A DNA stretch of 64,000 bases from NCBI RefSeq assembly GCF_022045235.1, contig NW_027266275.1, positions 68,634,001-68,698,000 on the forward strand. The letters are read 5' to 3'. Source of the DNA: Haliotis cracherodii (Eukaryota). Positions 19,639 through 64,000 of the stretch are shown piece after piece; the first letter of the stretch is position 1; the number at the start of each line of letters is the position of its first letter. Made by a program: the position numbers and the translations under genes. The notes under the pieces were generated by a model, which saw nothing but the letters and a program-made list of their open reading frames with translations, made no database searches and was not told the origin of the DNA.

Positions 19639-19760
19639 TTCCTCTGACTCGTCTCCCTTGTCTGAACAGTGGTGACTAGAAGCTTATAATAAAGGTGATC
19701 GATCGGTTTATGTAAGTCATGAAAGAGTGTTGAAGATAACGCTCTAAACACTTCCATTAA

Positions 19761-29154: not shown

Positions 29155-29595
29155 TCAATTTGTTAAAACTATGAGTATAGTGAAGAGAACGATGCCGAGA
29201 CCGATATTCATGAAGAGGAATAACTTCAGACACATGGCTTCAAGCGTGGCAGACACTTGCTTCCAGGATGGATCCTCTGTGCTCACCTTGGCATTTACGT
29301 CATCCGCATGATCTTGATCTACAGCAGCAGTCTGCTTTTTATTTGACGAAAAACATTTCCAGAGAACAACCCATTTCTGCAGCACTTTGGGCACCTTTCC
29401 CTGGCGCTTGTAGATCCTGAGAATGAGGATCATCATGGCCACAGAGAGGGAGCTTAGCGTGAGCAGAGCGGTCAGGTAGATGGTGAGGTAGGACGTCTGT
29501 TCGGGACGTTTTTGGATGTCTGTGGTAATCTGAGTCAGGAACACGCCAAAGGAGAGTAGAACCGTAATGGATAGAGCCACTTTGTAGATAAACAT
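29155..29595 (-). pseudogene. 5'-truncated nAChR-like copy C (M2-M3-M4 only; 146-aa ORF with a junction-derived ATG)
   Basis: Homology to A/B begins at KVALS (~29583). Signal peptide, ECD and M1 are missing. Compensating -1/+1 indels give DIQKRPEQTS in place of DMPKTSRQTS. Confidence 0.85.
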
Positions 29596-36946: not shown

Positions 36947-36954
36947 TATATAAA
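36947..36954 (+). promoter_or_regulatory. TATA box of saposin-like gene 1
   Basis: TATATAAA 70 nt upstream of the ATG, conserved in all three copies (49931-49938, 60582-60589). Confidence 0.7.
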
Positions 36955-37016: not shown

Positions 37017-40000
37017 ATGAATACTTCGATTCTCATTGTTGCCTTATGTGTCTCCCTTGGGTCAGGTAAGTTGGTTGGTTGATTATGTGTCAACCTATTT
37101 GTGCACGTGATATTTTACCAACTCATAATCATACACATTTGACTTATAATCTCAATATTTGTTTCAGCTATATCGCTGCCTAATAACTGGAATATAAGAC
37201 AACTAGGAACATCATCAACAGAGGTATACTCTCTATTCACCTGACAACTTTACATGCGAAACTTATAAACGTGTGTGTGTGTTGTTATCGTTATATCTAT
37301 TTTCAATGTCAGCGTTCAGTAAAAATTGAACTGCTTATAAGCGGAAAACATGCATTTTTTCTTGTGTATCATTTCAAAGGATGACGATGCGTGTACGAAC
37401 TGTAAGGAAACCCTCACCGCGGTTATTGCCAGATTGGACACAGATGAAGGCGTGGTGAGTCATGCTACTTGAATAAATTAGAAATGGATTGACCAGTGCC
37501 TACTTCCTGCTTGTCAAATACATGAACTGTTCTATTTATTGGCATTAAAAATAACGACGTTCATATGTATATAACCGCATTGCCTCGAAATACGAGAGCA
37601 TGGGTTTCAAAATCTTCTAAGGAGCCGATATTCGCTTTGTAGATCTGACGATTGTAGATTCCAATCCCTGATTATGATCGTTTGTTCGTCACGTGGCTGG
37701 TGGGATTTTAGACATGTCTATCACTTTAAGCTGACTTTCCATGAAATAATGTACAAACGCGTTAACGAGTCCCGTGTCCGAATCCCGACATGGGTTTACC
37801 ATGTGGGTTCTTGTGTCTCCTGCTGTGATATCGGTGGAATATTGCTAAAAGCGGCGTAAATACAATTGACACACTTGAATGTTCATATTCGGGCATTGTC
37901 GTGTGAAATGACTAATTGGCGAAAGCCTCTGTACAAAGGCATTTTTTGAAACCATGTTCTTTGGATTTCAGGAGATGGTAGAACAACTCCTAAAGGATGA
38001 AATATGTTATCATCTATCCTCATACTTTCTCACAGAAACCGTAAGTAAAAGTTGTCAGAATGGAGGAATGGAAAATGTTCATAATTCGACCATAAAACAG
38101 ATCCTTTAGTAGACATAGGCCATGGAAATAAATTAAAAGCGACACAACCTTTGCCATATACATAAGAAATCTCCGCAAAAAGCAGAGTCGATTCCGACTA
38201 TGTCATGAACATGTGTTTATGAATCACTATCAAATATGGATGATAGCATGTGTTCGCGAAAAGGTGAGCGTATCCTGCCCCACCGGTGGCACCCGTCACA
38301 AACACATGCAAATGCAAATCAAATGTTCATCCTTAAAAACCTAGGGGGACACATGTTACTCTTCAAAATAGGGAACTGCATCAGACATCATTCTTGTCAT
38401 TGATGCGTCAAATTTGTAAATGTCCTCCAGCTGTCGTCCTAAAACATTTTGAAAGCTTTACGGTGGCCTTGAATGTTGTAACCTTGATCAAAGAACGTCT
38501 GAGGAAGAGTCGTATGACTCTCATTGAAATTTTGGTAGAAAGGGAAAGCTCTATTATAGATCAAAAGGTGTAAAATGTAGACACCAAGGGCTGGAGCTGC
38601 AGGAATATTGCTGGACATAATGGGAATGTTGTGTATTGGAAGTTAAAGTTATCCCTCTTTTCATATAGTGTTGTGTATAGTGCTTTGTCACTCTGAATCT
38701 TTATGCATAGATCTAAATATGAAACAGATGAGGCGGTCTCACTGGTCACCTTTACTTCTAGTTCGGGTTGGGTGAAACATGGGAATTAAGGACTTGGCTA
38801 TTTGATGGTTATTGAACGATACCAAATCATCGATATACCTGAAGCTTTAAAAGTTAAGCTTCTTAGCCAAATTACCTTGTTTTGACTTTGCCAATCCAAG
38901 CAGAAATATTGTTTCATATGCATAGAGAAACAGATCAGCAAGAAGGGGAGCACAATTGGTGCCTAAATGTCTTCCCCCTAAACAATTTACATGGGTGTTA
39001 TCAATGAGGCAGTGCAGAAAATAAGGGATTGATGACTTACAGACTAATCACCTGACAGAGATGAGACGTTGGCGTTACATGTACTTAGGACACTACTGAT
39101 TGAATTAGGTTTATTGTATCAAAATATCTTACATTTGAATATTGTATCTTCTTGTTTCAGTGTAACTCTGCTGTTCATGGGCTTGTTCCAGGTCTTCTGC
39201 AGTATGTTGTTGAGAACGCGGTAAGATAGAGGAGAAGTGATGTCTTATGTATCCTTGTATACAACATAAGCATGTGAAGCATCATTAATTAGAAATATAA
39301 ATCGTCTGAATAGTAGGAAGAAAATAATATTTCTGTATGATACATATGAATCAATATTTTAAAAGAAATTCTTGGTATTGATTAAAATGTACATTTATAA
39401 TATGTGATTGTACAAACAATATTATGTTTCAGGATCCGGAGGTCTTGTGTAGTTTTGCAATGTTGTGTCCTGCGAACCTATGGAATCACTTCAAGAAGTC
39501 AACAAATGTCAATGTCCAAACGGTAATGATTTGTGTGAATCAGTCTGTCAGTATCATTATGTCATGATGGATTGGAATTGAACGAAAGATACGAGTGGTA
39601 ATTAGCACCAATTGCACGGCGTTGCTTCAGAGAAACGAAAAATTGAAACCGCCTAGAAATGCGTCTCTCCATTCTATAGACACTCGCCGATGCTGACACA
39701 ACCGTGATTAGCTAGTTATGTTGACCTGGATCAATGGGCCATTTGTGTTTCTGATATAAACTTGCAACAATAATTGTTTATTGTTTTTACACAATGGTCC
39801 TTAATTCAATGTGTTATTAAACCAAACTTATTTACGTTTAATAAACATACACAAAATGGTTCCGTTTTCTTCCAGGGTGATGATGCTTGTACAAACTGCA
39901 TTGAAGTCGTTGATAGTTTCATTGCAAGTTTGAACACAGATGAAGTGAAGGTAAAACGCTCATATTGAATGAGCGTGAATAGGTTTTTTTACCTCCTTAC

Positions 40001-42299
40001 TGTCGATTAATTGCATTTAAATCGAATTAGCTTGACATGTTGTTGGTCTGATAAACTTTGTGTAGACCATCGCAAACAGGTACCGAGACAATATGTCCAA
40101 TTATCGCACAGGGCACATGTCAACGTGTATAATTCAAATAAGCACTCATTACTAATTTTGTTGTTGGATTAGGCCCTTAAAAATGAAATATGTGTCTAAT
40201 GTATTGTGCAGGAGCAAGTGGAGACGTATTTCGACCATGTAATTTGCAGTCCACTTTCTGCTTATTTTCTGGAGGAAGTCGTAAGTGTTTACCTATTTGT
40301 TCTTATGTTCCACTTTTCTTTCTATTGAAATACGTATTTCAGTCAAACACATTGGCTATCATGTAAATGCTGTTGCTTCTTCTTAAACATACAGTGGCTA
40401 CATGATACCTGGGTCCACTTGCACAAAGCGATCTTAGCGCTACAATTATTGTAAATCCTTAAGATCGCGATCTTAGGCTTCGGCTACAATCGTCATCCAC
40501 TTGCTAAAAGCAATTGTAGGCTAAGATCATTGTAAGCCACAAACCGAAACTTACAATTGGACGGACCAATCCTAAATAACTTAGATCGTTGTAGTCCCTG
40601 AATAAACTTGACAAAATGGCGTGCAAGGCTTGGTCTGTTTTACATAAATAATCTGCTTTACGTTCAAACATTGCCTCTTTTTTTTGTTAAACTTATAATT
40701 CGAATCGACACTTTAACATGAAGAACGCACCACAGATTTAACGTCAGAAATATAGTTAATTACCATAGTTAAACACGTAACTATCGAGTCGATAGCTAAA
40801 AGGAATATTCCCATCCGACTCAATATTGAAAGAACTGTGAAACAACATACCTTCGCGCTAAACAAGGGAAGGATAAAAGCCTAAGTCGTTCCTCAAGTGA
40901 TTTGTAACGTCCGTGACCTTTTCGATAAATCAAGGGCAGCTAATCTTAGTTTATACTCTAGATGGGAGTGGTTTCCCTTTGTATAAGCCCGTAGAGTACA
41001 ATCTACTTTGAATAAAAACATGTGTATGTATTTCTCTCGTTGAAATAGAAAACAATTCCTAAATTACGACAGTTTTAATGCCGACAAGAATATATGCCTT
41101 CATTCTAGTAATCGTTTCCTTCAAATAATTGGGACCTTTCTTGAAACTGCAAAGTGCGATGGAGGGAGGTACGTGTTGCGTGTCGTTACCGGTTCCACGT
41201 ATTGTATGCGCAGCAAACTAGGCGCGTTTGCAGACAACTGTAGACAGGAGTCGCGTTTAAAATATTCGTACCTCCACCGTTGAAGATTTTAATCTTAGCT
41301 AAGATCGCGATCTTAACTCCAAGCCGTCTTACAATCGCCCTAATCGGTTTGTGCAGGTGGAATAGGACAATTGTATGGTGATTGTAATGTTGATTGTAGC
41401 CGCCTAAGATCAATTGTTCTGTGCAAGTGGGCCCTGGACACACATATTGTTTCGGCCATACACATTGATTTATATGAGATCTTTTGTCTTCTTAGAAATA
41501 ACTTGCTCTGAAACCAAATGATGCAAGACTTACATAAAACGTATAACTGACACTGACGCGTACACATATGCATGTGTAGCGAATGTCAATTGATTTGATA
41601 ATGCACAAGTAGTTGTTGAAGTTGTTTTAAAATAATATTCAACTGCTGAATTCTTGACTTTGTTTTAGTGTACTGCTGACCTCCGTGCTCTGATACCCGG
41701 GGTTCTGGATTACATTGTTGAAAACGCGGTAAGAAAAACGTTAAGAGTTTATAGATTCCATTCATATAAGAATTGGATATCGCACGTATCCTGACTTTAT
41801 CACTGGCTTAAATAAACAAATTGTCCCCTACTAATTTGAGGTACAACTACCTGTTACTTAAAACATTTCCATCAGTAGATATGATTCGTAATACAAAAAG
41901 CTTAAAATTAAAGAAATCATNNNNNNNNNNNNNNNNNNNNNNNNNNNNNNNNNNNNNNNNNNNNNNNNNNNNNNNNNNNNNNNNNNNNNNNNNNNNNNNN
42001 NNNNNNNNNNNNNNNNNNNNNNNNNNNNNNNNNNNNNNNNNNNNNNNNNNNNNNNNNNNNNNNNNNNNNNNNNNNNNNNNTTTAGTTAGACAGATTAGTA
42101 AATTATTTTAATCTTATTTAATCTGAAGTATTTTTTAATGTTGTTATCTGGATGCCAATCGTCATGATCAGTCCACCGTTTTTTCATGCTTTAGGATCCC
42201 GAGGGCCTTTGCACTCTCGCCACATTATGCCCAGAGAATGTTAAAGGAAAGCCATCTACTGTACAGGTGACAGACTTCCTTCAAAAGATAGCATTGTAA
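37017..42299 (+). CDS. Secreted double-saposin-B-domain protein, copy 1 (10 exons, 235 aa)
   Basis: GT-AG exons: 37017-37065, 37168-37223, 37380-37454, 37972-38040, 39161-39220, 39433-39522, 39876-39950, 40212-40280, 41669-41728, 42195-42299. Protein: MNTSILIVALCVSLGSAISLPNNWNIRQLGTSSTE-DDDACTNCKETLTAVIARLDTDEGVEMVEQLLKDEICYHLSSYFLTETCNSAVHGLVPGLLQYVVENADPEVLCSFAMLCP-ANLWNHFKKSTNVNVQT-GDDACTNCIEVVDSFIASLNTDEVKEQVETYFDHVICSPLSAYFLEEVCTADLRALIPGVLDYIVENADPEGLCTLATLCP-ENVKGKPSTVQVTDFLQKIAL*. Both domains show C-x2-C-x28-C-x11-C-x24-C-x5-C, the SapB pattern. Confidence 0.9.
38190..39010 (-). mobile_element. Penelope-like element RT remnant in intron 4 of saposin gene 1
   Basis: GTNCAPLLADLFLYAYE and SVSYLDLCIKIQ...LYEKRDNFNF motifs. 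Smaller relics sit at the same place in copies 2 and 3. Confidence 0.75.
40412..41433. mobile_element. PIF/Harbinger-like MITE in intron 8 of saposin gene 1
   Basis: CTG|ggtccacttgcaca ... tgtgcaagtgggcc|CTG: 3-bp CWG target duplication. Copies 2 and 3 show the empty site atacCTGgacac. Confidence 0.85.
41921..42080. other. N gap (160 nt) in intron 9 of saposin gene 1
   Basis: Directly visible. Confidence 0.99.
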
Positions 42300-42381
42300 G
42301 AACAAGATAGAAAACATTAGAAATATAGAAAAGTGTATTATAATCATATAGACAATTGATCTGAATTAAAGCATTTCTCCC

Positions 42382-42387
42382 AATAAA
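42382..42387 (+). terminator. Candidate polyadenylation signal of saposin gene 1
   Basis: AATAAA 83 nt after the stop; conserved in copy 2 (53990-53995). Confidence 0.5.
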
Positions 42388-42794
42388 TGATTTTATGTGA
42401 TGTTAATGCCAAACAATCATGCTATCCATTATCAATGTCTCAGACTACAGGAATTAGGTTTGTCATCATATGACTAGACATATTCAACTGTGTCTACATA
42501 TTGAGGAAATGGTTTGATATGATAGTTTGTCCTGCAATTGATGTCATTTATATATTTTTCAGATATTAATGAAATACTTAAGTCTACAAGTTATGAATCA
42601 CCATTAAGCAATGTATGCATCAATCCCTTTAAACCATATCAAAGCAACAAACACATTTACAAAATGTCTATATCATTAGGAACTATCTTAAATATGATAT
42701 TTCTTGTGAATGAATTTTATCTCAAGCCTGACCTATGCTATTGGATATTAAATTGTTTGCTAGGCAGTACTTAGACGTTGACGGATGACAAGGC

Positions 42795-43035
42795 AGACAC
42801 AATTTTATGGATAACAACTTCATTAATAATGTAAAAAGCGACGTTTCGGTGCAGACCTACCTATGTTATCCCACTCATATATGCAATTGTTATTACTGTT
42901 AATCCTCCACCTACTATATATATTCTGTACTATGTCCCTCATTCAGTCTTGCTTGACAACGGTATAAGGATCTATACCAAAACGTCGCTTTTTACAGTAT
43001 AAAAGAAGATGTTATCCATTAAATTGTGTCTACCT
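42795..43035. repeat. Inverted-repeat element (also 54400-54643)
   Basis: agacacaattt.atggataaca.ctt...gtaaaaagcgacgttt.ggt is mirrored by acc.aaacgtcgctttttaca...tgttatccat.aaattgtgtct. Confidence 0.7.
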
Positions 43036-43350
43036 TGTTAATGGATATTAAGTTATAGAAGTTTACAATGAAGTAATACATTTTGGCACTGATGCACATG
43101 CATGACTCAACTAAAGACTTATATTTTTTTCAGAATCTTTTCTTGAGGCGGATGTAAGTTGAATCGACCAGATTATCAACGTCTGCTAGAATTAGCATAG
43201 TAGTTGTTTGTATATGTGTCTGTTTAAAAAATAAACTAGTTGGAGTAAATGATCGACACGTGTCTTTTTTTCTCTTTAGTGGACATTTTGGATACCACTT
43301 GTGTGGTGGAGCATCATTTGAAACATTAGCGAATTGCTAATTATAATTAA

Positions 43351-44233
43351 CCCAGCAGTCACAAGAATGTTGAATCAATGTTGAATCAATGCCGCCCTTT
43401 AACGTTGAAATGACATTGATCTTTGATTGGATTTGAAATATTGACGTTGAATGTACATCAGATATCAATGATGAAATAATGTTGAATTTTGGTTGGGTAT
43501 TGGATGGATATTGGTTGCATTGACACATACATCTAAAAAAGACAATATAAACAGGTGAAATGGACTCCTAAAGTATATTGTGTTGGGGGCATGCCAGTGT
43601 CGCCATATCAGAGGCCAGTTTAATTTGGGTGGAATGCTGCATTTTGAGAGAACCCAGTGTCACTATTGATCTGTCATATACCAGCATCACCTCCTTTGAT
43701 TGGAAAGAGAATGTCATACAGTGTGCATGTTTGTTTCATTTGAGATCACTCGGTCGTTCTATGGTTGAATTATCTGAGGTTACAATGCCTGAATGTTCAG
43801 TTGAAATGCGAGATGTCCTGGCAGTTTCGGTAAAGTAAATTACAGTATGTCAGTAATAATTTCTATGGCTCACAGAAGTATTTAAAATATCTTTATTAGC
43901 ATTGTTAAACCAAATGTTTATCTATATTTATAACATGCAATACGTCTTTAAATCATCATTATGTGGTACAAAACATACAATCTAGAGTCTAGATATATTG
44001 ATTCCAACGACAAAAAATATATATATATATTTAATAAAGTATCGCTGAATTCATGATTTTCTGAGATGTCATCGTTTTTAGATTACTTTTCAATGTTGAA
44101 ACAATATCAGATTCAACATGTTTACAACTATCGAAAGGCAAATGTTGAAACAATGTCGATGCAATGTTTTTCAACGTAGCAGCCTCAGATGAACCAAATT
44201 TCAACACTCAAACAATGTCATGTGCCTGCTGGG
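43351..44233. mobile_element. MITE with CCCAGCAG termini and subterminal repeats, CACTA/CMC-like (also 54959-55877)
   Basis: cccagcagtcaca ... tgtgcctgctggg termini, with many tgttgaa/ttcaac subterminal repeats at both ends. Confidence 0.6.
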
Positions 44234-44553
44234 TAATGCACTACGGAAAAGCAATGGTGTGTCATTAAATACGAGGGAAGTGATTTGGAATGTTATATTT
44301 ATCACCCCGTATATTTAGTGACATACGTTAATGCAGCGTATCCTTCTCAATCTGTTCTACCCACGACAAACACATGCCAGATATTCACCTGAAGAAACAC
44401 GGAAACATTTAGTCCAATTCGCAATTGGGAATTGCATCTGACATCAGTTTTGATGAGATGAAACAGATGAGGATGTCTCATTACCTGCACATTACAGACA
44501 ATACAAGCATTTTATCCCATTTTAATATTTTGGGTGCCAGTCCTCGTTACCAG

Positions 44554-44802
44554 TCTATGTGCACTCTATACACGTTATGTCCAGAGAATGTTAAAGGGAA
44601 GCCATCCGATGTATTGTTGACTGGATTTAAACAAAAGATATGGACACATGTTAAGGCTAAAAACGAATTTCCTTTGATCTTTCTAAGGCATCTATACTAT
44701 ATTCGTATATTCTACCGATATTCCTGTAAACGCTTTCAGTATTCTGGCTATACATATTCAACCATGACTGAACATAGAGGGAATTCTGTTTTCAGCTGTT
44801 AA
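44554..44802 (+). other. Duplicated paralog of the saposin terminal exon (alternative last exon or relic)
   Basis: ttaccag|SMCTLYTLCPENVKGKPSDVLLTGFKQKIW... versus exon 10 GLCTLATLCPENVKGKPSTVQVTDFLQKIAL. Second copy at 56199-56276 (SMCTQYTLCPENVKGKPSDVLLTGF*). Confidence 0.7.
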
Positions 44803-47800: not shown

Positions 47801-50005
47801 TCGAACCTTATATGTTGGCCCAGCATAAGAAGCATTTAGAACGACATGAGGTGATGCTCAGTTTGATCTCGAAACGTTACATTACTGTAAGTCAATAACA
47901 GTTTGGTAAATGAAATCATCTCTGCCCATGTCCGTATATACAATCCTCCCTATACACACAATAATAAAGACGACTAGGACATAGTTCACGTGAAGGGTTG
48001 GATATTTGCGACATATTTTAAACAGAGGAGTGTTTGTCCGTCATGCGCCATGCGTTATTTCGTTAGTTAGCCATTATGTTTAAAATGGAATGAATGGTGG
48101 TGCATGGGAAGTTGGTAGTAGGGCGAATCGACATCAGTTTCCTTTTTTTGTGCGAGTTGTTGTATTTGTTTCCATCTTGGGCTGACTACAATGAAAGCTG
48201 TAACTGCTTGTTGGAAATCTGGACAAAATGTAATAAAACATGGTACTCAACATGGTTGTAGGACTCAACATATATGTGTTCCTTTTTTTAATAGTAATAA
48301 TATATGTTTTCATCCCTTTGACCATGCTCCCAAATTCTCTCAAATTGCATTTCCGACGAATACAAACATAATTTCTTCAGAATCCACTGGACCAATGAAG
48401 TAGAAACTTCCAACAAATGATGCCACCTGAATCTAAAGGAAAGGTTGAAATCCGATTTCAATATGGCCACTATCCAAATCATATTGGAAAACCTATTTCT
48501 GGCTATTACTCAAATGAACATTGGTATGTATGTAGTTAGTAATGGGGTTCAACATGTGTGTTCCGTTTTGCGATGTATTAGGTTCTGACCATTTTTTTAT
48601 CTTTCAACTCTGACAATGCTGAAATCTGAAATTTATGTCCATTATTTTGGCCATTTCTGGACAAAATGTAATGACATTTTTATATGTGTACATCTAGTTG
48701 GTAATGGGGCTTAATGTTCTGTTATCTCACAGGCATATTCAATCGTGAACTTCTTCAGACAAGAAAAGCTGAACTTTGTAATTTTCTCCTTATGATTACG
48801 TCATAGTTTGCAATCGTCAGAGTAAAAACACAGTACTTTCAGATTAGGTAAGGATGAAATACAATACATTTTAAAGTAGAAAATCTCTCCAACTGCTTCA
48901 GTGAAATCAAAGTAAGGATTCATTGCTAAAGAGTTCAATTTCAGAGATATTAATGACCTAATTTCATTCAACGATGCCGAGATAAACAAGTATGAGAATG
49001 GTGACAACAAGCTTTAAGACAAGAGGATCGTCAGTTTCCCCGCCATGTTGATCAATATTCTATCATCTCCAGCATATGGCGTCTACATGTTTCGCTTTCT
49101 TAGGTACATAAGAGCAAAAGAAAGCTTTTCAATCATCTCTTCACTATCAGTGACCTGGTTAAGGCATGCCAGAAAATGTATGGTAGTCATTCAAAGTTGA
49201 TTGTCAACATTATACGCTGCGCTAAACCATAGTATTACCTTTACAATGAGTTTTCACACCTCCTGGCACTTACTTTAATGGGGACGGGTGGTCAGGCTTG
49301 CTGTCATGGTTGACAGCCTGGCGTTGTACCCCGACGACGTGGATAACTGCTCATAATATCAATCACTGGAGTGTCTGGTCTATACCCGATTGCATACATG
49401 TAATATTCATAATTATTTTACCTTTTACACCTTATGTTTTCGGTAGACATGTGACACTGATTATTCTCTGCCATAGATGTTTTGAATTCTGTTAAAGTCT
49501 CTCATTATCGCAGCTTCCAAATCATAATTGAACACATAACACATTACCTAACTCTTAAAATACGACCGCCGACATTATGTCCGTGGTAATAAATAGTATT
49601 GTTATTCATCACAACAAGAAACTGATTCATTCAAAATAAATTATGAAGCATATTATGTAAAGGTGTGCCAATATCGATAAACACATGATAGCTATTGCGA
49701 AACATATGTTGAAATTGAATATACAAATTCCAAATGTTGTGAAGAATATTGGAATAGACATGTTGACTATATCAATTTCACATGTATGACACTTTTAACA
49801 AGGCAATTGGCTTTATGAGCACCAATTAAAAAGGGTAATGATCTCTTCAGAATTGCCAAACGCACCCATTAAAAGACATATGGGAAAATTAATTAGCGTC
49901 GAGTTGCACATGCTGTCACCCTAGCTTGAGTATATAAACCTCCATGACGGTAACTTCTGACAGTCTGACCTGACATCAACGTCGTGTTTACGTCTATCCC
50001 CGAAA

Positions 50006-53000
50006 ATGAATACTTCGATTCTCATTATTGCCCTATGTGTCTCCGTTGGGTCAGGTGAGTTGGTTGCGTTAGGAGTTGATTATATGTCAACCTTTGTATA
50101 TTTGTAGACGTGATATTTTACCAACTCATACACATTTGACTTTTAAACTCAATATTTGTTTCAGCTATATCGCTGCCTAATAACTGGAATATAAGACAAC
50201 TAGGAACATCATCAACGGAGGTATACTCTCTACTCACCTGACAACTATATATACGAAACTTATAAACGTGTGTGTGTGTTGTAATCGTTTTATCTATTTT
50301 CAAAGTCAGTGTTCAGTACAAAATGAACTGCTTATAAGTGTAAAAAAACGTTTCACATAGTTTTCTTCTGCATCATTTCAAAGGATGACGATGCGTGTAC
50401 GAACTGTAAGGAAACACTCACCGCGGTTATTGCCAGATTGGATACAGATGAAGGCGTGGTAAGTCATGCTACTTGAATAAATTAGAAATGGATTGAGCAG
50501 TGCCTACTTCCTGCTTGTCAAAGAAATGAACTGTTCTATTTATTGGCATTTAATATAACGACTTGATTTCCTTTGTTAATCTGACGATTGTTGATTCCAA
50601 TTACTCACGTCGATCCATTGTTCGCCACGTGGCTTGAAGGACTTGCAGTGAAATAATGTCGGAAAGGCACATAAACTGGCGAGACAAATGAAAAGAACTT
50701 CTTCCCTTTTCCAATTTCACAATTGCCTACGTTGATAACGGGGTTTGATGAGAAGGGAATAGAGTAATAATTGTGCAGCCGTTGAATCCTTCCATGATAA
50801 AGCATGAACTCGAATTTAGTGAAAACTATGAAAACGAGTTCAGTTATATTCATTAACGAGAAAACGTCTAAAAAGGTGGAAGGCTAGAGGTTAACGCGAT
50901 CGCCGTCCGAATCCCTACTTGGGTACAATGTGTGAAGCCCATTTCTGATGTGTCCCGCCTTGATATCGCTGGAATATTGCTAAAAACGGTGTAAAACACA
51001 ACTCACACACTTAAATGTTCATCAATTGGCATTATTGTGTGAAATTAATAACTTGCAAAGCCTCTGTAAAAGCTTTAGGGCAATTACAGAAACTGTGTTT
51101 TTTTGTATTTCAGGTGATGGTAGAACAATTGCTAAAGGATGAAATATGTTCTCATCTATCCTCATACTTTCTCACAGAAACTGTAAGTAAATTTTGTGAT
51201 GACGGTAGAATGGAAATTGTTGAACCATGAAGTAGTAGACTTATGCCAAGAAAAACTCTTTCCATATGCATAAGAAATCTCCATAAAAAGTAGTCGAATA
51301 TATCATGAACATGTGTTTATGAATCACAATCATTTAGAGATGATACCAGGTGGTCGCGAAAAGGTGAGCGGATCCTGGCCCACCGGTGGAACCCGTTACA
51401 AATACATGCAAAGGCAAGTCATTTGTTCACCTAAAAAACATGTGAACATATTGTGCAAGTCCTGGTGGCCTAGTCTTCTAAGGCAGAGTTGTCTGCAGAG
51501 TTGCGTTCCTTGGGCTGGCCAGAAACCTATGATTAATGGTTCGAATCACGGTTCTCCCCAATTATATATCTAGATTTGTCAGGACCATACCCGTGCTTGT
51601 GGGTTTCACCGAAGTGGTAAACGTCTGAGACCTGCATCATTTCGGGCTTTCCTCCCACATTAAGCTGACACGCTTGATATAAATGAAATAATGTTAAAAG
51701 CGACGTTACACCGAACTCACTCACTCACTCACTCGATCACTGATTCATATGCATAAAGAAACAGATCAGGAAGAATTGGTGCCTATGGGAATGCCTACTT
51801 TTTTCCTAAAATATTTCCCCAACATTGTTTAGATGTTATTAAACGATGAATTGGAGGCTAATCACCTGACAGAGGTAGGATTTTGGCTTTACATATACTT
51901 AGGACAATATCAATCGAATAATGTATAACCATTATGTCATGAGTCTGACCATTGTATCTTCTTGTTTCAGTGTAACTCTGCTGTTCATGGGCTTGTTCCA
52001 GGTCTTCTGGAGTATGTTGTGGAGAACGCGGTAAGACAGAGGAGACATGATAGCCTATTTATCATTGTATGTAACACATGAAAGTGATTAATTATAAACT
52101 ACAAACAGAAATCGTCTGAAGAGTAGGAAGAATATAAATATTAATATAAGATAAGATAAAGAAACTAAAAATGTAAATTCAAAATATTTGATTCTATATG
52201 TTTCAGGATCCCGAGGTCTTGTGCAGTTTGGCAATGTTGTGTCCTGAGAAGCAAAAGAATCACTTCAAGATGATTACAAATGTCGATGTAAAAACGGTAA
52301 TGTTTTGTGTGAATGTGTTCACACCAATTAGCACCAATGACAAGCCGATGCCGTGAAACGTAGATGAGGGTTTAAGAGATACTCACAACACAACTCACGA
52401 CTAAAAACAGTGATTGTTCATTCTGTATACGCAATGGTCCACGAGTCATTGTGTGATTTATTTCAACATATTTACGATAAATAAACATACACAAGGAGGT
52501 TCTGTTTTCTTCCAGGGTGATGATGGTTGTACAAACTGCATTGAAGTCGTTGATAGTTTCATTGAGAGTTTGAACACAGATGAAGTGAAGGTAAAACGCT
52601 CATATTGAGTTAGCGTGAATAAGTTTTTGTACCTCCTTACTGTCGATAAATTGCATTTTAATCAAATTAGCTTAACATGTTGTTGGTCTGATAAACTTTG
52701 TGTAGACCATCGCAAATAGTTACCGAGACAACATGTCGAATTATCGCACAGGGCACATGTCAACGTTTATAATTCAAATAAGCACTCATTACTAATTTTG
52801 TTGTTGGATTAGGCCCTAAATGACAAGTGTGTCTAATGTTTTGTACAGGAGCAAGTGGAGACGTATTTCGACCATGTAATTTGCAGTCCACTTTCTGCTT
52901 ATTTTCTGGAGGAAGTCGTAAGTGTTTACTTATTTGTTCTTATGTTCCACCTTCATTTCTATTGAAATATGTATATCAGTCAAACACATTGGCTATCATG

Positions 53001-53905
53001 TTAATGTTGTTGCTTCTTCTTAAGCATACAGTGGCTACATGATACCTGGACACAATTATTGTTTCAGCCATACATATTGATTTGCATGAGTTCTTTTGTC
53101 TTCTTAGAAAAAACTTGCTCTGAAACCAAATGATTCAAGACTTACACAAAACGTATAACTGACACTGACGCGTACACATATGCATGTTTAGCGAATGTCA
53201 ATTGATTTGATAATGCACAATGTAGTTGTTGAAGTTGTTTTAAAAAAAATATTCAACTGCTGACTTCTTGACTTTGTTTTAGTGTACAGCTGAGGTCTGT
53301 GCTCTGATACCCGGGGTTCTGGATTACATTGTTGAAAACGCGGTAAGAAAACCGTTAACAGTTTTTAGATTCCATTCATATAAGAATTGGATATCGCACG
53401 TATCATGATTTTATCACTGGCTTAAATGAACAAATTGTCCACTTCTAATTCGAGGTACAACTACCTGTTACTTAAAACATTCTCATCAGTGGATATGATT
53501 CCAAATACAAAAAGCTTAAAATTATAGAAATCATNNNNNNNNNNNNNNNNNNNNNNNNNNNNNNNNNNNNNNNNNNNNNNNNNNNNNNNNNNNNNNNNNN
53601 NNNNNNNNNNNNNNNNNNNNNNNNNNNNNNNNNNNNNNNNNNNNNNNNNNNNNNNNNNNNNNNNNNNNNNNNNNNNNNNNNNNNNNNNNNGTTAGACAGA
53701 TTAGTAAATTATTTTAATCTTATTTAATCTGAAGTATTTTTTAATGTTGTTATCTGCATGCCAATCATCATGATCAGTCCACCGTTTTTCCATGCTTTAG
53801 GATCCCAAGGGCCTTTGCACTCTCGCCACATTATGCCCAGAGAATGTTAAAGGAAAGCCATCTACTGTACAGGTGACAGACTTCCTTCAAAAGATAGCAT
53901 TGTAA
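50006..53905 (+). CDS. Secreted double-saposin-B-domain protein, copy 2 (10 exons, 235 aa)
   Basis: Exons 50006-50054, 50165-50220, 50384-50458, 51114-51182, 51971-52030, 52207-52296, 52516-52590, 52849-52917, 53283-53342, 53801-53905. All GT-AG, frame intact; extra Cys in exon 9 (CTAEVCAL). Confidence 0.9.
51455..51735 (+). mobile_element. SINE family 3 in intron 4 of saposin gene 2 (orthologous copy 62195-62492)
   Basis: tggcctagtcttctaaggc...ggttcgaatc...gggctttcctcccacattaagctgacacg...(CTCA)n. Absent from copy 1. Confidence 0.8.
53535..53690. other. N gap (156 nt) in intron 9 of saposin gene 2
   Basis: Directly visible; same flanks as the first gap. Confidence 0.99.
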
Positions 53906-56753
53906 GAACAAGATAAAAAAAACATTAGAAATATAGAAAAGTGTATTATAATCATATAGACAATTGATCTGAATTAAAGCATTTCTCCCAATAAATAATT
54001 CTATGTGATGTTAATGCCAAACAATCATGCTATCCATTATCAATGTCTCAGACTACAGGAATTAGGTTTGTCATCATATGACTAGACATATTCAACTGTG
54101 ACTACATATTGAGGAAATGGTTTGATATGATAGTTTGTCCTGCAATTGATGTCATTTATATATTTTTCAGATATTAATGAAATACTTAAGTCTACAAGTT
54201 ATGAATCACCATTAAGCAATGTATGCATCAATCCCTTTAAACCATATCAAAGCAACAAACACATTTACAAAATGTCTATATCATCAGGAACTATCTTAAA
54301 TATGATATTTCTTGTGAATGAATTTTATCTCAAGCCTGACCTATGCTATTGGATATTAAATTGTTTGCTAGGCAGTACTTAGAAGTTGACGGATGACAAG
54401 GTAGACACAATTTTATGGATAACAACTTCATTAATACTGTAAAAAGCGACGTTTCGGTACAGACCTACCTATGTTATCCCACTCATATATGCAATTGTTA
54501 TTACTGTTAATCCTCCACCTACTATATATATTCTGTACTATGTCCCTCATTCAGTCTTGCTTGACAACGGTATAAGGATCTATACCAAAACGTCGCTTTT
54601 TACAGTGTTAAAGAAGATGTTATCCATTAAATTGTGTCTACCTTGTTAATGGATATCAAGTTATAGATGTTTACAATGAAGTAATACATTTTGGCACTGA
54701 TGCACATGCATGACTCAACTAAAGACTTATATTTTTTTCAGAATCTTTTCTTGAGGCGGATGTAACTTGAATCGACCAGATTATCAACGTCTACTAGAAT
54801 TAGCATAGTAGTTGTTTGTATATGTGTCTGTTTAAAAAATAAACTAGTTGGAGTAAATGATCGACACGTGTCTTTTTGTCTCTTTAGTGGACATTTTGGA
54901 TACCACTTGTGTGGTGGAGCATCATTTGAAACATTAGCGAATTGCTAATTATAATTAACCCAGCAGTCAGATTAATGTTGAATCAATGCCGCCCTTCAAC
55001 GTTGAAATGACATTGATCTTTGATTGGATTTGAAATATTAACGTTGAATGGACATCAGATATCAATGATGAAATAATGTTGAATTTTGGTTGGGTATTGG
55101 ATGGATACTGGTTTCATTGACACATACATCTAAAAAAGACAATATAAAGGGGTCAAATGGACTCCTAAAGTCTCATCCCATAGGAGTTGCACCTTCCTGG
55201 ATACTAGAGTCTCCTGGCTGAGGTCCAGGACTCATATTGTGTTTGGGGCATGCCATTGTCGCCATATCAGAGGCCGTTTTTCTACTTTGTTAATTTGGGT
55301 GGAATGCTGCATATTGATCTGTCATATACCAGCATCACCTCCTTTGTTTGGAAAGAGAATAGCGCGTTCATACAGTGTGCACGTTTGTTTCATTCGACAT
55401 CACTCGGTCATTCTATGGTTGAATTATCTGATGTTACAATGTCCAAATACACGCCGGAATGTTCAGTTGAAATGCGAGATGTCCTGGCAGTTACGGTAAA
55501 GTAAATTACAGTATGTCAGTAATAATTTCTATGGCTCACAAAAGTATTTAAAATATCTTTATTAGCATTGTTAAACTAAATGTTTATCTATATTCATAAT
55601 ATGTAATACGTCTTTAAATCATCATTATGTGGTATCTAGAGTCTAGATATATTGATTCCAACGACAAATTTGTTTTAATAAAGTATCGCTGAATTCATGA
55701 TTTTCTGAGGTGTCATCGTTTTTAGATTACTCTTTAATGTTGAAACAATATCAGATTCAACATGTTTTCAACTATCGAAAGGCCAATGTTGAAACAATGT
55801 CGATACAATGTTTTTCAACGTAGCAGCCTCAGATGAACCAAATTTCAACACTGAAACAATGACATGTGCCTGTTGGGTAATGCACTACGGAAAAGCAATG
55901 GTGTGTCACTAGATACGAGGGAAGTGATTTGGAATGTTATATTTATCACCCCGTAGTTTCAGTGACATACGTTAATGCAGCGTAGCCTTCTGAATCTGTT
56001 CTACCCGCGACAAACTCATGCCAGATATTCACCTGAAGAAACACGGGAACATTTGGCCCAGTTCGCAATTGGGAATTGCATCTAACATCAGTTTTGATGA
56101 GATGAAACAGATGAGGATGTCTCATTCCCTGCACATTATAGACAATACAAGCATTTTATCCCATTTTAATATTTTGGGGTGCCAGTCCTCGTTACCAGTC
56201 TATGTGCACTCAATACACGTTATGTCCAGAGAATGTCAAAGGGAAGCCATCCGATGTATTGTTGACTGGATTTTAACAAAAGATATGGACACATGTTAAG
56301 GCTAAAAACGAATTTCCCTTGATCTTTCTAAGGCATCTATACTATATTCGTATATTCTACTGATATTCCCGTAAATGCTTTCAGTATTCTGGCTATACAT
56401 ATTCAACCATGACTGAACATAGAGGGAATTCTATTTTCAGCTGTTAATGAAATACCACGGGTTCTGAATCACCGTTAAACACCGCCACAACGATAATCAT
56501 TCATGTATGAAACGTTGAAATCGTTGAAACTATTATAATCCAGTGCAATATTGACAGAAAGATAATATCTCTTTAATATCCTAATATCCAAGCCTGACAT
56601 ATTCAACTGGAGGCGTATCCTTTTCAGCGTCTTGCGGATGTAACGTGAATGAATTAAACTTTGATTATCAACGTTTCCAAAAATAGCATTGCATTCGTCT
56701 ATATATTTATCCGTTTGTGAAAAAAAGTTGAGTCCATGATAACGGCTTCAGTA

Positions 56754-56949
56754 CGGTGGCCCATACCCGCCACTGGTGAGATCATTTTTCACTGTATGCC
56801 TCTACATTTTATCTGGCAGCCGCCAGATACTTCCACTGGTGAGATCATTTCCCCCTGTATACCTCTATATTTTATCTCACCAGTGGAAGTATAAAATATA
56901 GAGGCATACAGTGAAAAATGATCTCACCAGTGGCGGGTATGGGCCACCG
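56754..56949. mobile_element. TA-flanked palindromic MITE, Tc1/mariner-like (rearranged counterpart at 45109-45265)
   Basis: TA|cggtggcccatacccgccactggtgagatcatttttcactgtatgcctcta ... tagaggcatacagtgaaaaatgatctcaccagtggcgggtatgggccaccg|TA. Confidence 0.7.
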
Positions 56950-59900: not shown

Positions 59901-60656
59901 GAAATACAATACATTTTTAAGTAGAAAATCTCACACCTCCTGACACTTACTTTAATGGGGACGAGTGGTCAGGTTGGTTGTCTTGGTTGACAGCCTGGCG
60001 TCGTACCCCGACGACGTGGCTCACTGCTCATAATATCAATCACTGGAGTGTCTGGTCTATACTCGATTGTATACATGTAATATTCATCATCATTTTACCT
60101 TTTACACCTTATGTTTTCGGTAGACATGTGACACTGATTATTCTCTGTCATAGATGTTCTGTTACATTTCTAAAGTCTCTCATTATCGCAGCTTCCAAAT
60201 CATAATTGAACACATTACACATTACCTTACTCTTAAAATACGACCGCCGACATTATGTCCGTGGCAATGAATAGTATTGTTATTCATCACAACAAGAAAC
60301 TGATTCATTAAAAAGGTGTGCCAACATCGATAAACACATGATAGCTATTGCGAAGCATATATTGAAATTGAATATATCAATTCCACATGTTGTGAAGCAT
60401 ATTGGAATAGACATTTTGACTATCAATTTCACATGTCTGACACTTTTAACAAGGCAATTGGCTTTATTAGCACCAACTAGAAAGGGTAATGATATCTTCA
60501 AAACTGCCAAACGCACCCATTAAAAGACATATGGGAAAATTAATTAGCGTCGGGTTGCACATGCTGTCACCCTAGCTTGAGTATATAAACCTCCATGACG
60601 TTTACTTCTGACAGTCTGACCTGACATCAACGTCGTGTTTACGTTTATCCCCGAAA

Positions 60657-63600
60657 ATGAATACTTCCATTCTCATTATTGCCCTATGTGTCTCCGTTGG
60701 GTCAGGTAAGTTGGTTGCGTTAGGAGTTAATTATATGTCAACCTTTGTATTTTTGTAGACGTGATATTTTACCAACTCATACACATTTGACTTTTAAACT
60801 CAATATTTGTTTCAGCTATATCGCTGCCTAATAACTGGAATATAAGACAACTAGGAACATCATCAACGGAGGTATACTCTCTACTCACCTGACAACTATA
60901 TATGCGGAACTTATAAACGTGCGTGTGTGTTGTAATCGTTTTATCTATTTTCAAAGTCAGTGTTCAGTACAAAATGAACTGCTAATAAGAGTAAAAAAAC
61001 GTTTCACATATGATATGATACTAGTAGTTTTCTTCTGCATCATTTCAAAGGATGACGATGCGTGTACGAACTGTAAGGAAACACTCACCGCGGTTATTGC
61101 CAGATTGGATACAGATGAAGGCGTGGTAAGTCATGCTACTTGAATAAATTAGAAATGGATTGAGCAGTGCCTACTTCCTGCTTGTCAAAGAAATGAACTG
61201 TTCTATTTATTGGCATTTAATATAAGGACTTTCAGTTGTATATTACTGCATTGCCTCTAAATACGGGAGCATGGGTTTCAAAAGTCTTCTATGGAGACGA
61301 TGTTTGCTTTGTAAATCTGACAATTGTAGATTCCAATCACTCACGTTGATCCCTTGTTCGCCACGTGGCTCGTGGGACTTGCAGTGAAATAATGTCGGAA
61401 AGGCACATCAACTGGCAAGACAAATGAAAAGGAACTTCTTCCCTTTTCCAATTTCACAACTGCCTACGTTGATAACGGGTTTTGATGAAAAGGGAATAAA
61501 GTAAAAATTGTGCAGCCGTTGAGGCCTTCCATGATAAAGCATGAACTCGAATTTAGTTCAACTATGAAAACGAGTTCAGTTATATTCACTAACGAGAAAA
61601 TGTCTAAAAAGGTGGAAGGCTAGAGGTTAACGCAATCGCCGTCCGAATCCCTACTTGGGTACAATGTGTGAAGCCCATTTCTGATGTGTCCCGCCTTGAT
61701 ATCGCTGGAATATTGCTAAAAACGGCGTAAAACACAACTCACACACTTAAATGTTCATCAATTGGCATTATTGTGTGAAATTAATAACTTGCAAAGCCTC
61801 TGTAAAAGCTTAAGGGCAATTACAGAAACTGTGTTTTTTTGTATTTCAGGTGATGGTAGAACAATTGCTAAAGGATGAAATATGTTCTCATCTATCCTCA
61901 TACTTTCTCACAGAAACTGTAAGTAAATTTTGTGATGACGGTAGAATGGAAATTGTTGAACCATGAAGTAGTAGACTTATGCCAAGAAATACTCTCTCCA
62001 TATGCATAAGAAATCTCTATAAAAAGTAGTCGAATATATCATGAACATGTGTTTATGAATCACAATCATTTAGAGATGATACCAGGTGGTCGCGAAAAGG
62101 TGAGCGGATCCTGGCCCACCGGTGGCACCCGTTACAAATACATGCAAAGGCAAGTCATTTGTTCACCTAAAAAATATGTGAACATATTGTGGAAGTCCTG
62201 GTGGCCCAGTCTTCTAAGGCAGAGTTGTCTGCAGAGTTGCGCTCCTTGGGCTGGCCAGAAACCTATGATTAATGGTTCGAATTCCGGTTCTCCCCAATTA
62301 TATATCTAGATTTGTCAGGACCATACCCGTGCTCGTGGGTTTCACCGAAGTGGTAAACGTCTGAGACCTGCATCATTTCGGGCTTTCCTCCCACATCAAG
62401 CTGACACGCTGATATAAATGGAAAAATGTTAAAAGCGACGTTACACCGAACTCACTCACTCACTCACTCACTCACTCACTCACTCACTCACTGATTCATA
62501 TGCATAAAGAAACAGATTAGGAAGAAGGGGATCACAATTGGTGCCTAAGTGTCTTGAGTCTGACCATTGTATTTTCTTGTTTCAGTGTAACTCTGCTGTT
62601 CATGAGCTTGTTCCAGGTCTTCTGGAGTATGTTGTGGAGAACGCGGTAAGACAGAGGAGACACGATGGCCTATTTATCATTGTATGTAACACATGAAAGT
62701 GATTAATTATAAACTACAAACAGAAATCGTCTGAAGAGTAGGAAGAATATAAATATTAATGTAAGATAAAGAAACTAAAAAAGTAAATTTAAAATATTTG
62801 ATCCTATATGTTTCAGGATCCCGAGGTCTTGTGCAGTTTGGCAATGTTGTGTCCTGAGAAGCCAAAGAATCACTTCAAGATGATTACAAATGTCGATGTA
62901 CAAACGGTAATGTTTTGTGTGAATGCGTTGGATTTATTCCCGCTTTAAACTGTTTGTCAGTTATATTAAAGTTGGACGAATGTCACAGATAATAATTAGC
63001 ACCAATGACACGCCGATGCGTGAAACGTAGATGAGGGTTTAAGAGATACTCACAACACAACTCACGACTAAAAACAGTGATTGTTCATTCTGTATACGCA
63101 ATGGTCCACGAGTCATTGTGTGATTTAACACAACATATTTACAATAGATAAACATACACAAGGAGGTTCTGTTTTCTTCCAGGGTGATGATGGTTGTACA
63201 AACTGCATTGACGTCGTTGATAGTTTCATTGAGAGTTTGAACACAGATGAAGTGAAGGTAAAACGCTCATATTGAATTAGCGTGAATAAGTTTTTGTACC
63301 TCCTTACTGTCGATAAATTGCATTTTAATCGAATTAGCTTGACATGTTGTTGGTCTGATAAACTTTGTGTAGACCATCGCAAATAGTTACCGCCACAACT
63401 TGTCCAATTATCGCCAAGGGCACATGTCAACGTGTATAATTCAAATAAGCACTCATTACTAATTTTGTTGTTGGATTGGGCCATAAATGACAAGTGTGTC
63501 TAATGTATTGTACAGGAGCAAGTGGAGACGTATTTCGACCATGTAATTTGCAGTCCACTTTCTGCTTATTTTCTGGAGGAAGTCGTAAGTGTTTACTTAT

Positions 63601-64000
63601 TTGTTCTTATGTTCCACCTTTATTTCTATTGAAATATGTATATCAGTCAAACACATTGGCTGTCATGTTAATGTTGTTGCTTCTCCTTAAGCATACAGTG
63701 GCTACATGATACCTGGACACAATTATTGTTTCAGCCATACATATTGATTTGCATGAGTTCTTTTGTCTTCTTAGAAAAAACTTGCTCTGAAACCAAATGA
63801 TTCAAGACTTACACAAAACGAATAACTGACACTGACGCGTACACATATACATGTGTAGCGAATATCAATTGATTTGATAATGCACAATGTAGTTGTTGAA
63901 GTTGTTTTAAAAAAAATATTCAACTGCTGACTTCTTTACTTTGTTTTAGTGTACAGCTGAGGTCCGTGCTCTGATACCCGGGGTTCTGGATTACATTGTT
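60657..64000 (+). CDS. Secreted double-saposin-B-domain protein, copy 3 (exons 1-9; runs off the right edge)
   Basis: Exons 60657-60705, 60816-60871, 61051-61125, 61850-61918, 62586-62645, 62817-62906, 63183-63257, 63516-63584, 63950->64000. Frame intact. Confidence 0.88.

What the first reader, a model, noticed from the sequence alone, without database searches (positions are those of the whole stretch)
37017..64000. Cryptic tandem family of secreted, highly acidic double-saposin proteins
The family is invisible as ORFs because exons are only 49-105 nt, but it reconstructs cleanly in three copies. Each encodes a signal peptide, a short pro-segment and two SapB domains with perfect six-Cys spacing. 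In copy 1 the domains have about 15-16 D/E against 2-3 K/R, unlike cationic NK-lysin or granulysin. There is no SapA domain or four-domain layout, unlike prosaposin. Established: SAPLIPs bind or extract lipids or permeabilise membranes. Inference: a lineage-specific expansion with a lipid-carrier, digestive, mucus or immune role.
Basis: partly seen in the sequence, partly recalled or inferred. Interest (0 to 1): 0.7.

Follow-up and report, generated by a model that had tools for sequence, protein, structure and literature searches.

The report
Abalone tandem double-saposin gene cluster
These are real, spliced, already annotated abalone genes, repeated head to tail, for a small acidic protein with two saposin (lipid-binding-type) domains that was likely copied from a nearby prosaposin gene and likely carries or dissolves lipids outside the cell; it is an ordinary kind of protein in an abalone-specific expansion that our literature searches did not find described.

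Summary
Three copies lie in the window; the array has five full-length units (one with a premature stop) and a one-domain remnant. Spliced copies 1, 2 and 5 equal RefSeq 'prosaposin-like' proteins of Haliotis cracherodii letter for letter, so the family is not cryptic. Public contigs skip five predicted introns at GT-AG in 3 of 4 runs and end just after the second domain, so these are not pieces of prosaposin or AOAH. Both domains carry the six saposin cysteines, and saposins are the top sequence and fold matches. Acidity is normal for saposins (965 of 1,062 comparison domains are net negative); domain 2 is merely at the extreme. New here: a six-domain prosaposin gene lies 158 kb away, and its first two domains have the same four-exon layout. 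A second family of 12 hydrophilic double-saposin genes adjoins the array and shares prosaposin's signal-peptide exon. Best reading: a prosaposin-derived, non-glycosylated lipid solubiliser or carrier switched on by low pH (about 0.5). Rivals are an acid-activated antimicrobial or a lysosomal cofactor. Tissue and activity are untested. New member of a known kind; modest interest.

The parts
36947..36954 (+). TATA-like box upstream of copy 1 (same motif at 49931-49938 and 60582-60589)
   Evidence: sequence; function inferred
37017..43146 (+). Copy 1, ATG to stop, 238 aa, = XP_071108246.1. Coding exons 37017-37065, 37168-37223, 37380-37454, 37972-38040, 39161-39220, 39433-39522, 39876-39950, 40212-40280, 41669-41728, 42195-42295, 43134-43146
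   Evidence: (0 mismatches to P0004)
37017..37223 (+). Copy 1 exons 1-2: predicted signal peptide (about residues 1-17) and short pro-segment
   Evidence: hydropathy; no signal-peptide predictor was run, cleavage site judged by eye
37380..39522 (+). Copy 1 exons 3-6: SapB domain 1 (Cys 40, 43, 72, 84, 109, 115) and the 17-residue linker
39876..42295 (+). Copy 1 exons 7-10: SapB domain 2 (Cys 138, 141, 170, 182, 207, 213) and C-terminal tail
40407..41432 (.). About 1 kb repeat insertion in intron 8, present in copy 1 and absent from copies 2 and 3
   Evidence: a contig joins 40407 to 41433 and repeat-like depth covers it
43230..43235 (+). AATAAA after the stop of copy 1 (copy 2: 54838)
   Evidence: use as poly(A) signal inferred
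44560..44606 (+). Degenerate stray piece of exon 10 downstream of each copy (copy 2: 56205-56251)
   Evidence: blastn
50006..54754 (+). Copy 2, 238 aa, = XP_071107787.1, with an extra Cys at 187. Exons 50006-50054, 50165-50220, 50384-50458, 51114-51182, 51971-52030, 52207-52296, 52516-52590, 52849-52917, 53283-53342, 53801-53901, 54742-54754
   Evidence: 0 mismatches to P0001; joints were laid on this copy
60657..64000 (+). Copy 3, cut by the window end inside exon 9. Exons 60657-60705, 60816-60871, 61051-61125, 61850-61918, 62586-62645, 62817-62906, 63183-63257, 63516-63584, 63950-64000; exons 10-11 lie just beyond the window; intact frame, one residue from XP_071107910.1

Best explanation
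These are spliced, tandemly repeated abalone genes for a 238-residue protein with a predicted signal peptide and two acidic saposin domains, likely derived from the neighbouring prosaposin gene, that likely works outside the cell as a lipid solubiliser or carrier switched on by low pH. Shown: gene structure, splicing, six-Cys saposin pattern, net negative charge, no N-glycosylation sequon in the mature chain, no SapA or enzyme domain. Inferred origin: the 5' part of prosaposin (signal exon, short pro exon, first four-exon SapB module) was copied locally, the module was doubled inside the gene (domains 44 of 81 identical), and the roughly 10-13 kb unit was then amplified in tandem. Inferred mechanism, by analogy with saposins A-C: at neutral or seawater pH the domains would stay closed and be repelled from anionic membranes. 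On acidification the carboxylates would be partly neutralised, and the domains would open and wrap lipids with their hydrophobic faces, either as a linked pair or after cleavage in the variable linker. A mildly acidic gut lumen or digestive vacuole is the most likely setting; tissue is untested.
For: Sequence matches in the PDB: SP-B N-terminal domain E=1.5e-4, saposin C E=0.004. The five best fold matches among 48,161 chains are all saposin domains in open or lipid-associated entries; the best is saposin A with galactocerebrosidase, Z 9.6, rmsd 2.2 over 79 residues. Domains stay hydrophobic: GRAVY is at the 71st-98th percentile of 1,062 SapB domains. Net charge C1-C6 is -9 and -12 in copy 1; a simple titration gives -11.8 and -14.9 at pH 7, and -3.7 and -6.8 at pH 4.2. 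That is still negative, which suits saposin-A-like lipid handling better than attack on anionic bacterial membranes. pH-gated membrane binding of acidic saposins is established (PMC8878781 and PMC6017893, passages). Sequon: none in mature family-A proteins, against 5 of 6 domains of the local prosaposin and 586 of 1,062 background domains. Origin: the local prosaposin's domains 1-2, but not 3-6, have four phase-0 exons with a 60-nt third exon like these genes. Its domain 1 ranks 4th and 2nd of 1,072 outside domains against profiles of family-A domains 1 and 2. Constraint: all 12 Cys are invariant in 7 of 7 abalone proteins aligned; copy 1 vs 2 dN 0.044, dS 0.081, domain 1 dN 0.028, dS 0.133.
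Against: No assay and no tissue data. The fold model is weak (mean pLDDT 56.5, pTM 0.35); Foldseek gave no match at E<=0.001; Z of 8-10 is modest for helical proteins; and an open model does not show an open protein. The closest PDB sequence match, SP-B(N), is an anionic SAPLIP that kills bacteria at acid pH (PMC8538444, passages), so acidity does not exclude defence, and tandem expansion with birth and death of copies is typical of defence genes (general knowledge). The origin from prosaposin domain 1 is not resolved by the tree: family A is one branch (SH-aLRT 99), but its sister group has no strong support (quick tree, 75 columns). Whole-protein BLASTP scores best against prosaposin domains 5-6 (27%), not 1-2. 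The family-A signal peptide does not resemble prosaposin's. The background set was picked by similarity to an acidic query, so it may overstate how common acidity is. Domain 2 shows dN close to dS (0.033 vs 0.036) on few changes.
Confidence: 0.5

Rival explanations
1. An acid-activated antimicrobial or membrane-permeabilising protein like SP-B(N), amoebapores or caenopores, released into gut or mucus and possibly cut into two single saposins.
For: The best PDB sequence match is SP-B(N), an anionic saposin-like peptide that kills bacteria at acidic but not neutral pH (PMC8538444, passages). The array is young and turning over, with one stop-codon copy and one remnant. There is no glycan. The linker holds about 10 of 23 non-synonymous changes between copies 1 and 2.
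Against: Only 2-3 K/R per domain in H. cracherodii, and the calculated charge stays negative at pH 4.2. The domains are conserved rather than diversifying. The linker tract is also divergent at synonymous sites and in flanking introns (21-24%), which points to an older sequence tract rather than selection.
Confidence: 0.22
2. A lysosomal or digestive-vacuole sphingolipid activator: a short, specialised prosaposin paralogue that is cut into two saposins presenting lipid to hydrolases.
For: Probable descent from prosaposin; acidity like human saposins A and C; the top fold match is saposin A bound to galactocerebrosidase; a signal peptide fits lysosomes as well as secretion.
Against: It lacks the sequon kept in 5 of 6 local prosaposin domains and lacks SapA. 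An intact prosaposin gene already exists nearby. One of four runs laid showed no contig (weak, the tool warns this can be false).
Confidence: 0.15
3. A saposin scaffold re-used for a non-lipid job, such as calcium binding or structure in mucus, egg coat or shell matrix.
For: Very high D/E content: only 15 of 1,062 background domains are as negative as domain 2. The adjoining family B has lost much of its hydrophobicity, so such drift happens at this locus.
Against: Family A keeps a strongly hydrophobic saposin core. No paper found places it in shell, mucus or egg proteomes (supplements not examined).
Confidence: 0.11
4. The exons are part of a larger gene (prosaposin, AOAH, sphingomyelinase) or are dead duplicates.
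For: One H. asinina model (P0010, 423 aa) strings family-A and family-B-like pieces together; copy 4 and the remnant are broken.
Against: One contig runs from exon 4 to the stop-bearing exon 11; each unit has its own TATA, ATG, stop and AATAAA; four of five units have open frames; prosaposin is a separate gene on the other strand.
Confidence: 0.02

Closest known systems
Prosaposin and saposins A-D (human; and the six-SapB abalone-type prosaposin P0023 and its orthologue at G000:C12:68,480,802-68,513,216)
   Same: Six-Cys SapB domains in tandem behind a signal peptide; net negative charge; same four-exon, phase-0 layout as prosaposin domains 1-2; saposins A, B and C among the top fold matches.
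   Different: Two domains, not four to six; no SapA; no sequon; 21-29% identity to P0023 over two-domain stretches; multi-copy.
Surfactant protein B N-terminal domain, SP-B(N)
   Same: Best PDB sequence match (E=1.5e-4); anionic; solved with bound lipid; pH-dependent activity reported.
   Different: SP-B is a vertebrate three-domain precursor (recalled); this is a two-domain mollusc protein with no shown activity.
NK-lysin and granulysin
   Same: Signal peptide, short pro-segment, saposin fold, no SapA (layout recalled).
   Different: They are single-domain and basic (PMC11896702, passages); NK-lysin ranks only 48th in the fold search.
Stand-alone two- and three-domain SAPLIPs of nematodes, plants and protists; amoebapores and caenopores
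   Same: Nearest Atlas clusters are 205-236-residue SapB proteins, scores 0.89-0.90; unnamed two- and three-domain proteins align on all 12 Cys.
   Different: Only 19-24% identity, so probably independent origins; pore formation untested here.
Tandem prosaposin-like duplicates of Acropora corals
   Same: Lineage-specific local duplication of prosaposin-like genes in a marine invertebrate (PMC7850063, passages).
   Different: Two neighbouring genes described there, against about 17 short two-domain genes in two families here.

Membership tests
Saposin-like proteins (SAPLIP, SapB) | Six conserved cysteines in the saposin spacing | tested here: met
   Spacing 3-29-12-25-6 in both domains; all 12 Cys invariant across 46 aligned proteins
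Saposin-like proteins (SAPLIP, SapB) | Helical saposin fold of about 80 residues | tested here: met
   Model is all-helical but weak (pLDDT 56.5); top five VIA rows are saposin domains, Z 7.8-9.6, best rmsd 2.2 over 79; Foldseek top rows are saposins but E>0.001
Saposin-like proteins (SAPLIP, SapB) | Profile match to Pfam SapB_1 or SapB_2 | tested here: inconclusive
   SapB_2 over the 21-bit cut-off for P0007 (23.3) and P0009 (27.7), under it for copies 1 and 2 (15.1, 16.7); no SapB_1 hit. Single exons gave no SapB hit in 8 of 8
Saposin-like proteins (SAPLIP, SapB) | Sequence similarity to characterised members | tested here: met
   SP-B(N) E=1.5e-4, saposin C E=0.004; 349 hits at E<=0.001, named ones being prosaposin-like
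Saposin-like proteins (SAPLIP, SapB) | Three disulfides 1-6, 2-5, 3-4; lipid or membrane interaction | not testable with these tools
   Needs protein chemistry
Prosaposin | Four or more SapB domains plus SapA | tested here: not met
   Two SapB, no SapA; contig ends at exon 11; the only strong SapA hit in the genome is in the separate prosaposin gene
Prosaposin | N-glycosylation sequon after helix 1 of the domains (feature recalled; frequency measured here) | tested here: not met
   0 of 10 family-A domains against 5 of 6 local prosaposin domains
NK-lysin / granulysin | Single, cationic saposin domain | tested here: not met
   Two domains, net -9 and -12
AOAH / acid sphingomyelinase | SapB fused to a hydrolase domain | tested here: not met
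   238 aa, stop 25 residues after the last Cys, no hydrolase family in Pfam
Amoebapore / caenopore-type pore formers | pH-dependent oligomeric pore formation | not testable with these tools
   Needs liposome or bilayer assays

The most novel reading that the evidence does not exclude
Abalone have turned prosaposin into a 17-gene secreted system of two complementary families encoded side by side: an acidic, hydrophobic double saposin (family A, this finding) and a hydrophilic, near-neutral double saposin whose first domain has lost the lipid-binding face (family B). The two would act together, with B neutralising, chaperoning or targeting A as SP-A does for SP-B(N), to emulsify dietary lipid or control microbes outside the cell.
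Probability: 0.07. Interest if true: 0.6.

Novelty: new member of a known kind. Interest (0 to 1): 0.27.

Why it matters
If right, a lysosomal housekeeping gene has given rise in abalone to a block of about 17 short secreted saposin genes, with the parent still next door and its exon layout preserved. That is a clean case of how stand-alone SAPLIPs arise. It would give abalone digestion and disease work a set of unstudied candidate effectors, and a natural two-domain saposin is a possible lipid-nanodisc scaffold. It changes no general principle: acidic and multi-domain SAPLIPs, and lineage-specific SAPLIP expansions, are known.

Tried and rejected
Pfam on single exons found no SapB in 8 of 8. 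The run search listed no holder on record as RNA; all laid runs are 'RNA?' guesses kept as contigs. The first read-laying over copy 1 was swamped by intronic repeats and listed no exon joints. Run X10 laid 0 contigs, which is no proof of absence. Contig depth at the joints differed (362, 27.5, 7.2), but the tool warns that depth is a poor measure of expression, and no tissue labels are given. The copies are too alike to assign contigs to one copy. HDH_G27130 ('SapB1', log2 fold change 12.75 in an H. discus hannai gonad table that also lists VERL and glycosidases; PMC11989308, passages) cannot be tied to this family: family A has no SapB_1 hit, while other genes in the genome do. The isoelectric points of 4.05 printed are a floor of the library; values (3.4-3.9) replace them. 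The careful tree did not finish, so the quick tree was used. My exon-by-exon rebuild of family B failed at one boundary, so its intron phases are not fully verified; the protein is taken from RefSeq. Weak Pfam zinc-finger hits are CxxC look-alikes below cut-off. Positive selection on the linker was rejected, because synonymous and intron divergence there is equally high. No complex prediction was run. Earlier scan findings: none near, none by sequence, and none of eight word hits concerns this locus. The review by Bruhn 2005 was not held. Supplementary tables of papers were not examined and could list these genes.
Full report
OBSERVATION. The window is G000:C12:68,634,001-68,698,000 of a 1.18 Gb animal genome. 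From 37,017 to the end it holds three copies of a 10-13 kb unit. Joining exons by coordinates gave an open frame with GT-AG at all 10 introns of each copy and phase 0 throughout the SapB exons. Copy 1 has coding exons of 49, 56, 75, 69, 60, 90, 75, 69, 60, 101 and 13 nt, 238 residues in all. The layout is a hydrophobic N-terminus (no predictor run), a short pro-segment, SapB domain 1, a 17-residue linker, SapB domain 2 and a 25-residue tail. No later stretch is hydrophobic enough for a membrane helix (best 19-residue window 1.06). Cys spacing is 3-29-12-25-6 in both domains. Flanking sequence shows five full-length units and a sixth remnant. Copy 4 has a stop at codon 179; the remnant has no exon 1 match, a stop in exon 3 and only one domain. 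Copy 3 is cut by the window end.

NOT CRYPTIC. A 40-residue exon query found RefSeq proteins. Copies 1, 2 and 5 equal XP_071108246.1, XP_071107787.1 and XP_071107910.1, named 'prosaposin-like [Haliotis cracherodii]', with 0 mismatches. Orthologues are annotated in H. rufescens (88-90% identical) and H. asinina (66%). A search of 1.84 billion representatives gave 349 hits at E<=0.001. Of the 150 listed, the two above 50% identity are Haliotis, one long protein matches only a 32-residue stretch at 42%, and the rest are at most 31%.

SPLICING. On copy 2 exons 5-10, contigs from 3 of 4 runs (2 studies) skip all five introns at GT..AG exactly where predicted. Loose ends read exon 4 upstream. One 541-nt contig runs from exon 4 into the stop-bearing exon 11, and two runs show another 3' joint matching the H. 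rufescens-type ending. The runs are only guessed to be RNA, but precise intron loss marks spliced transcripts. One intron of copies 1 and 2 holds N, and the contigs join across it.

FAMILY. PDB sequence matches are SP-B(N) (E=1.5e-4) and saposins C, D and A. Pfam SapB_2 passes its cut-off for copy 5 and the H. asinina protein, but not for copies 1 and 2. The AlphaFold model is weak (pLDDT 56.5, pTM 0.35). Still, the five best of 48,161 chains are saposin domains (best Z 9.6, rmsd 2.2, 79 aligned), and Foldseek ranks saposins first without reaching E<=0.001. The Atlas agrees.

ACIDITY. The counts are right: 15 and 17 D/E against 3 and 2 K/R. Among 1,062 SapB domains cut from 146 of 148 non-family search hits, 965 are net negative, median -5. 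Of these, 159 are as negative as domain 1 (-9) and 15 as negative as domain 2 (-12) (the set was chosen by similarity to an acidic query). Human saposins A and C carry -8.2 and -9.1 at pH 7 (PMC6017893, passages). So acidity allies the protein with true saposins and SP-B(N), and only domain 2 is unusual. The domains remain hydrophobic (71st-98th percentile) and have no sequon (0 of 10, against 586 of 1,062 in the background and 5 of 6 in the local prosaposin).

CONTEXT AND ORIGIN. A prosaposin gene lies on the minus strand at C12:68,480,802-68,513,216, 158 kb from copy 1. It has six SapB domains and one C-terminal SapA, and matches the 639-residue P0023 exon by exon. Like family A it starts with a phase-1 signal exon and a short pro exon. 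Its domains 1-2 are each split into four phase-0 exons with a 60-nt third exon; domains 3-6 are split differently. The two family-A domains are 44 of 81 identical, score 88-106 bits against each other's profile and at most 40 against anything else, and form one branch (SH-aLRT 99), so one module was doubled within the gene. The local prosaposin domain 1 ranks 4th and 2nd of 1,072 outside domains. Against this, the tree leaves the sister group unresolved, BLASTP prefers domains 5-6, and the signal peptides differ. Descent from prosaposin domain 1 is likely, not shown.

Directly downstream, C12:68.73-68.845 Mb holds a second family (B) of 12 copies with a first exon. It encodes 193-residue double-SapB proteins that RefSeq calls prosaposin-like, proactivator polypeptide-like 1 or uncharacterized. 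Its signal peptide matches P0023 at 10 of 15 residues, the best of 137 proteins tested, and its exon 1 has the same 46 nt and donor as the local prosaposin's (26 of 46 bases identical). Its first domain is near neutral and lies at the bottom of the background's hydrophobicity range (0th percentile). Its model (pLDDT 55.8) also ranks saposins first, without reaching E<=0.001.

EVOLUTION OF THE COPIES. Copy 1 differs from the others at 19-20 residues; copies 2-5 differ at 1-5. Copy 1 vs 2: dN 0.044, dS 0.081; domain 1 0.028 vs 0.133; domain 2 0.033 vs 0.036; linker 0.30 vs 0.23. Coding DNA differs less than the seven introns measured: 6 of 717 against 62 of 2,043 for copies 2-3, and 36 of 717 against 145 of 1,947 for copies 1-2. 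Intron divergence between copies 1 and 2 runs from 1.6% to 24%, a mosaic that suggests conversion or unequal crossing-over. This is a maintained but turning-over array.

MECHANISM. Established: acidic saposins bind membranes when low pH neutralises their carboxylates (saposin C binding pKa 5.3; PMC8878781, passages) and open to enclose lipid, whereas amoebapores and caenopores form pores and basic NK-lysin and granulysin insert directly (PMC11896702, passages). Anionic SP-B(N) kills bacteria at acid pH (PMC8538444, passages). Inferred: with a retained hydrophobic core, almost no basic residues and a charge still negative at pH 4.2, family A fits lipid solubilising or carrying better than lysis of anionic membranes. 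Loss of the glycan and of SapA fits secretion better than lysosomal routing. That parts of the abalone gut are mildly acidic is recalled, not checked. I put this at 0.5, acid-activated defence at 0.22, lysosomal cofactor at 0.15, a non-lipid role at 0.11 and part of a larger gene or dead copies at 0.02. Nothing here shows tissue or activity.

LITERATURE. Searches for saposin + Haliotis (6 papers), abalone + prosaposin (5), proactivator polypeptide + abalone (0), saposin + mollusc + mucus + proteome (3), saposin-like + mollusc + antimicrobial (10), SAPLIP cluster terms (9) and six gene or accession ids (0) showed no description of this cluster. I judged them from listings, and read passages only of PMC11989308, PMC11359391, PMC11896702 and PMC7850063 among them. 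The library lacks most subscription journals, and supplements were not examined. PMC7850063 reports tandem prosaposin-like duplicates in Acropora. PMC11359391 lists a seven-saposin transcript in a predatory snail.

VERDICT. Real, correctly reconstructed and already annotated. It is a SAPLIP, but not prosaposin, NK-lysin or AOAH. The more interesting fact, the 17-gene two-family cluster beside its likely parent, lies outside the window. New member of a known kind; interest 0.27.

Noticed in passing
G000:C12:68,730,000-68,845,000 (L004-L037): Family B: 12 copies with a first exon, plus a partial copy, of a 193-aa double-SapB gene, mostly on the minus strand with three inverted. Shares prosaposin's signal-peptide exon; its first domain is unusually hydrophilic and has no Pfam SapB hit.
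   Followed up: partly
G000:C12:68,480,802-68,513,216 (L011, L017-L020), minus strand: Prosaposin with six SapB domains and only a C-terminal SapA; an inverted copy of one of its exons sits in an intron at 68,482,858-68,483,001.
   Followed up: partly
G000:C12:15,727,000-15,752,000, minus strand: A further gene or array with at least 10 SapB repeats, several near-identical; isolated SapB_1 hits also on C1, C3 and C15.
   Followed up: no
window 1-29,601, minus strand (8752-9984, 18448-19683; partial or broken at 1896-2695 and 29155-29601; another running off the window start): Tandem intronless pentameric ligand-gated ion channel genes (Pfam Neur_chan_LBD and Neur_chan_memb); the translation shows the Cys-loop but no vicinal cysteine pair. 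Fits the reported molluscan nAChR expansion (PMC6896357, search listing only).
   Followed up: partly
G000:C12:68,707,660 region (copy 4) and 68,723,291-68,727,360 (remnant): Copy 4 has an in-frame stop at codon 179; the sixth unit lacks exon 1, has a stop in exon 3 and joins domain 1 to the last exons.
   Followed up: yes
window 53283-53342 (copy 2 exon 9): Arg187 is Cys in copy 2 only, giving an unpaired seventh cysteine in domain 2 that could form a covalent dimer.
   Followed up: no
P0010 (XP_067671744.1, H. asinina): A 423-aa model joins family-A exons to a family-B-like domain; in G000 the nearest A and B copies are on opposite strands. It may be an annotation read-through or a real fusion.
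   Followed up: no
window 53891-54219 and 53901-54754: Two different 3' splice routes after exon 10 in contigs from differently labelled organisms, giving different short tails.
   Followed up: partly
G000:C12:68,424,439-68,428,388 (L012), minus strand: Two intronless ORFs of about 410 residues that look like yellow / major royal jelly proteins (label recalled, not tested).
   Followed up: no
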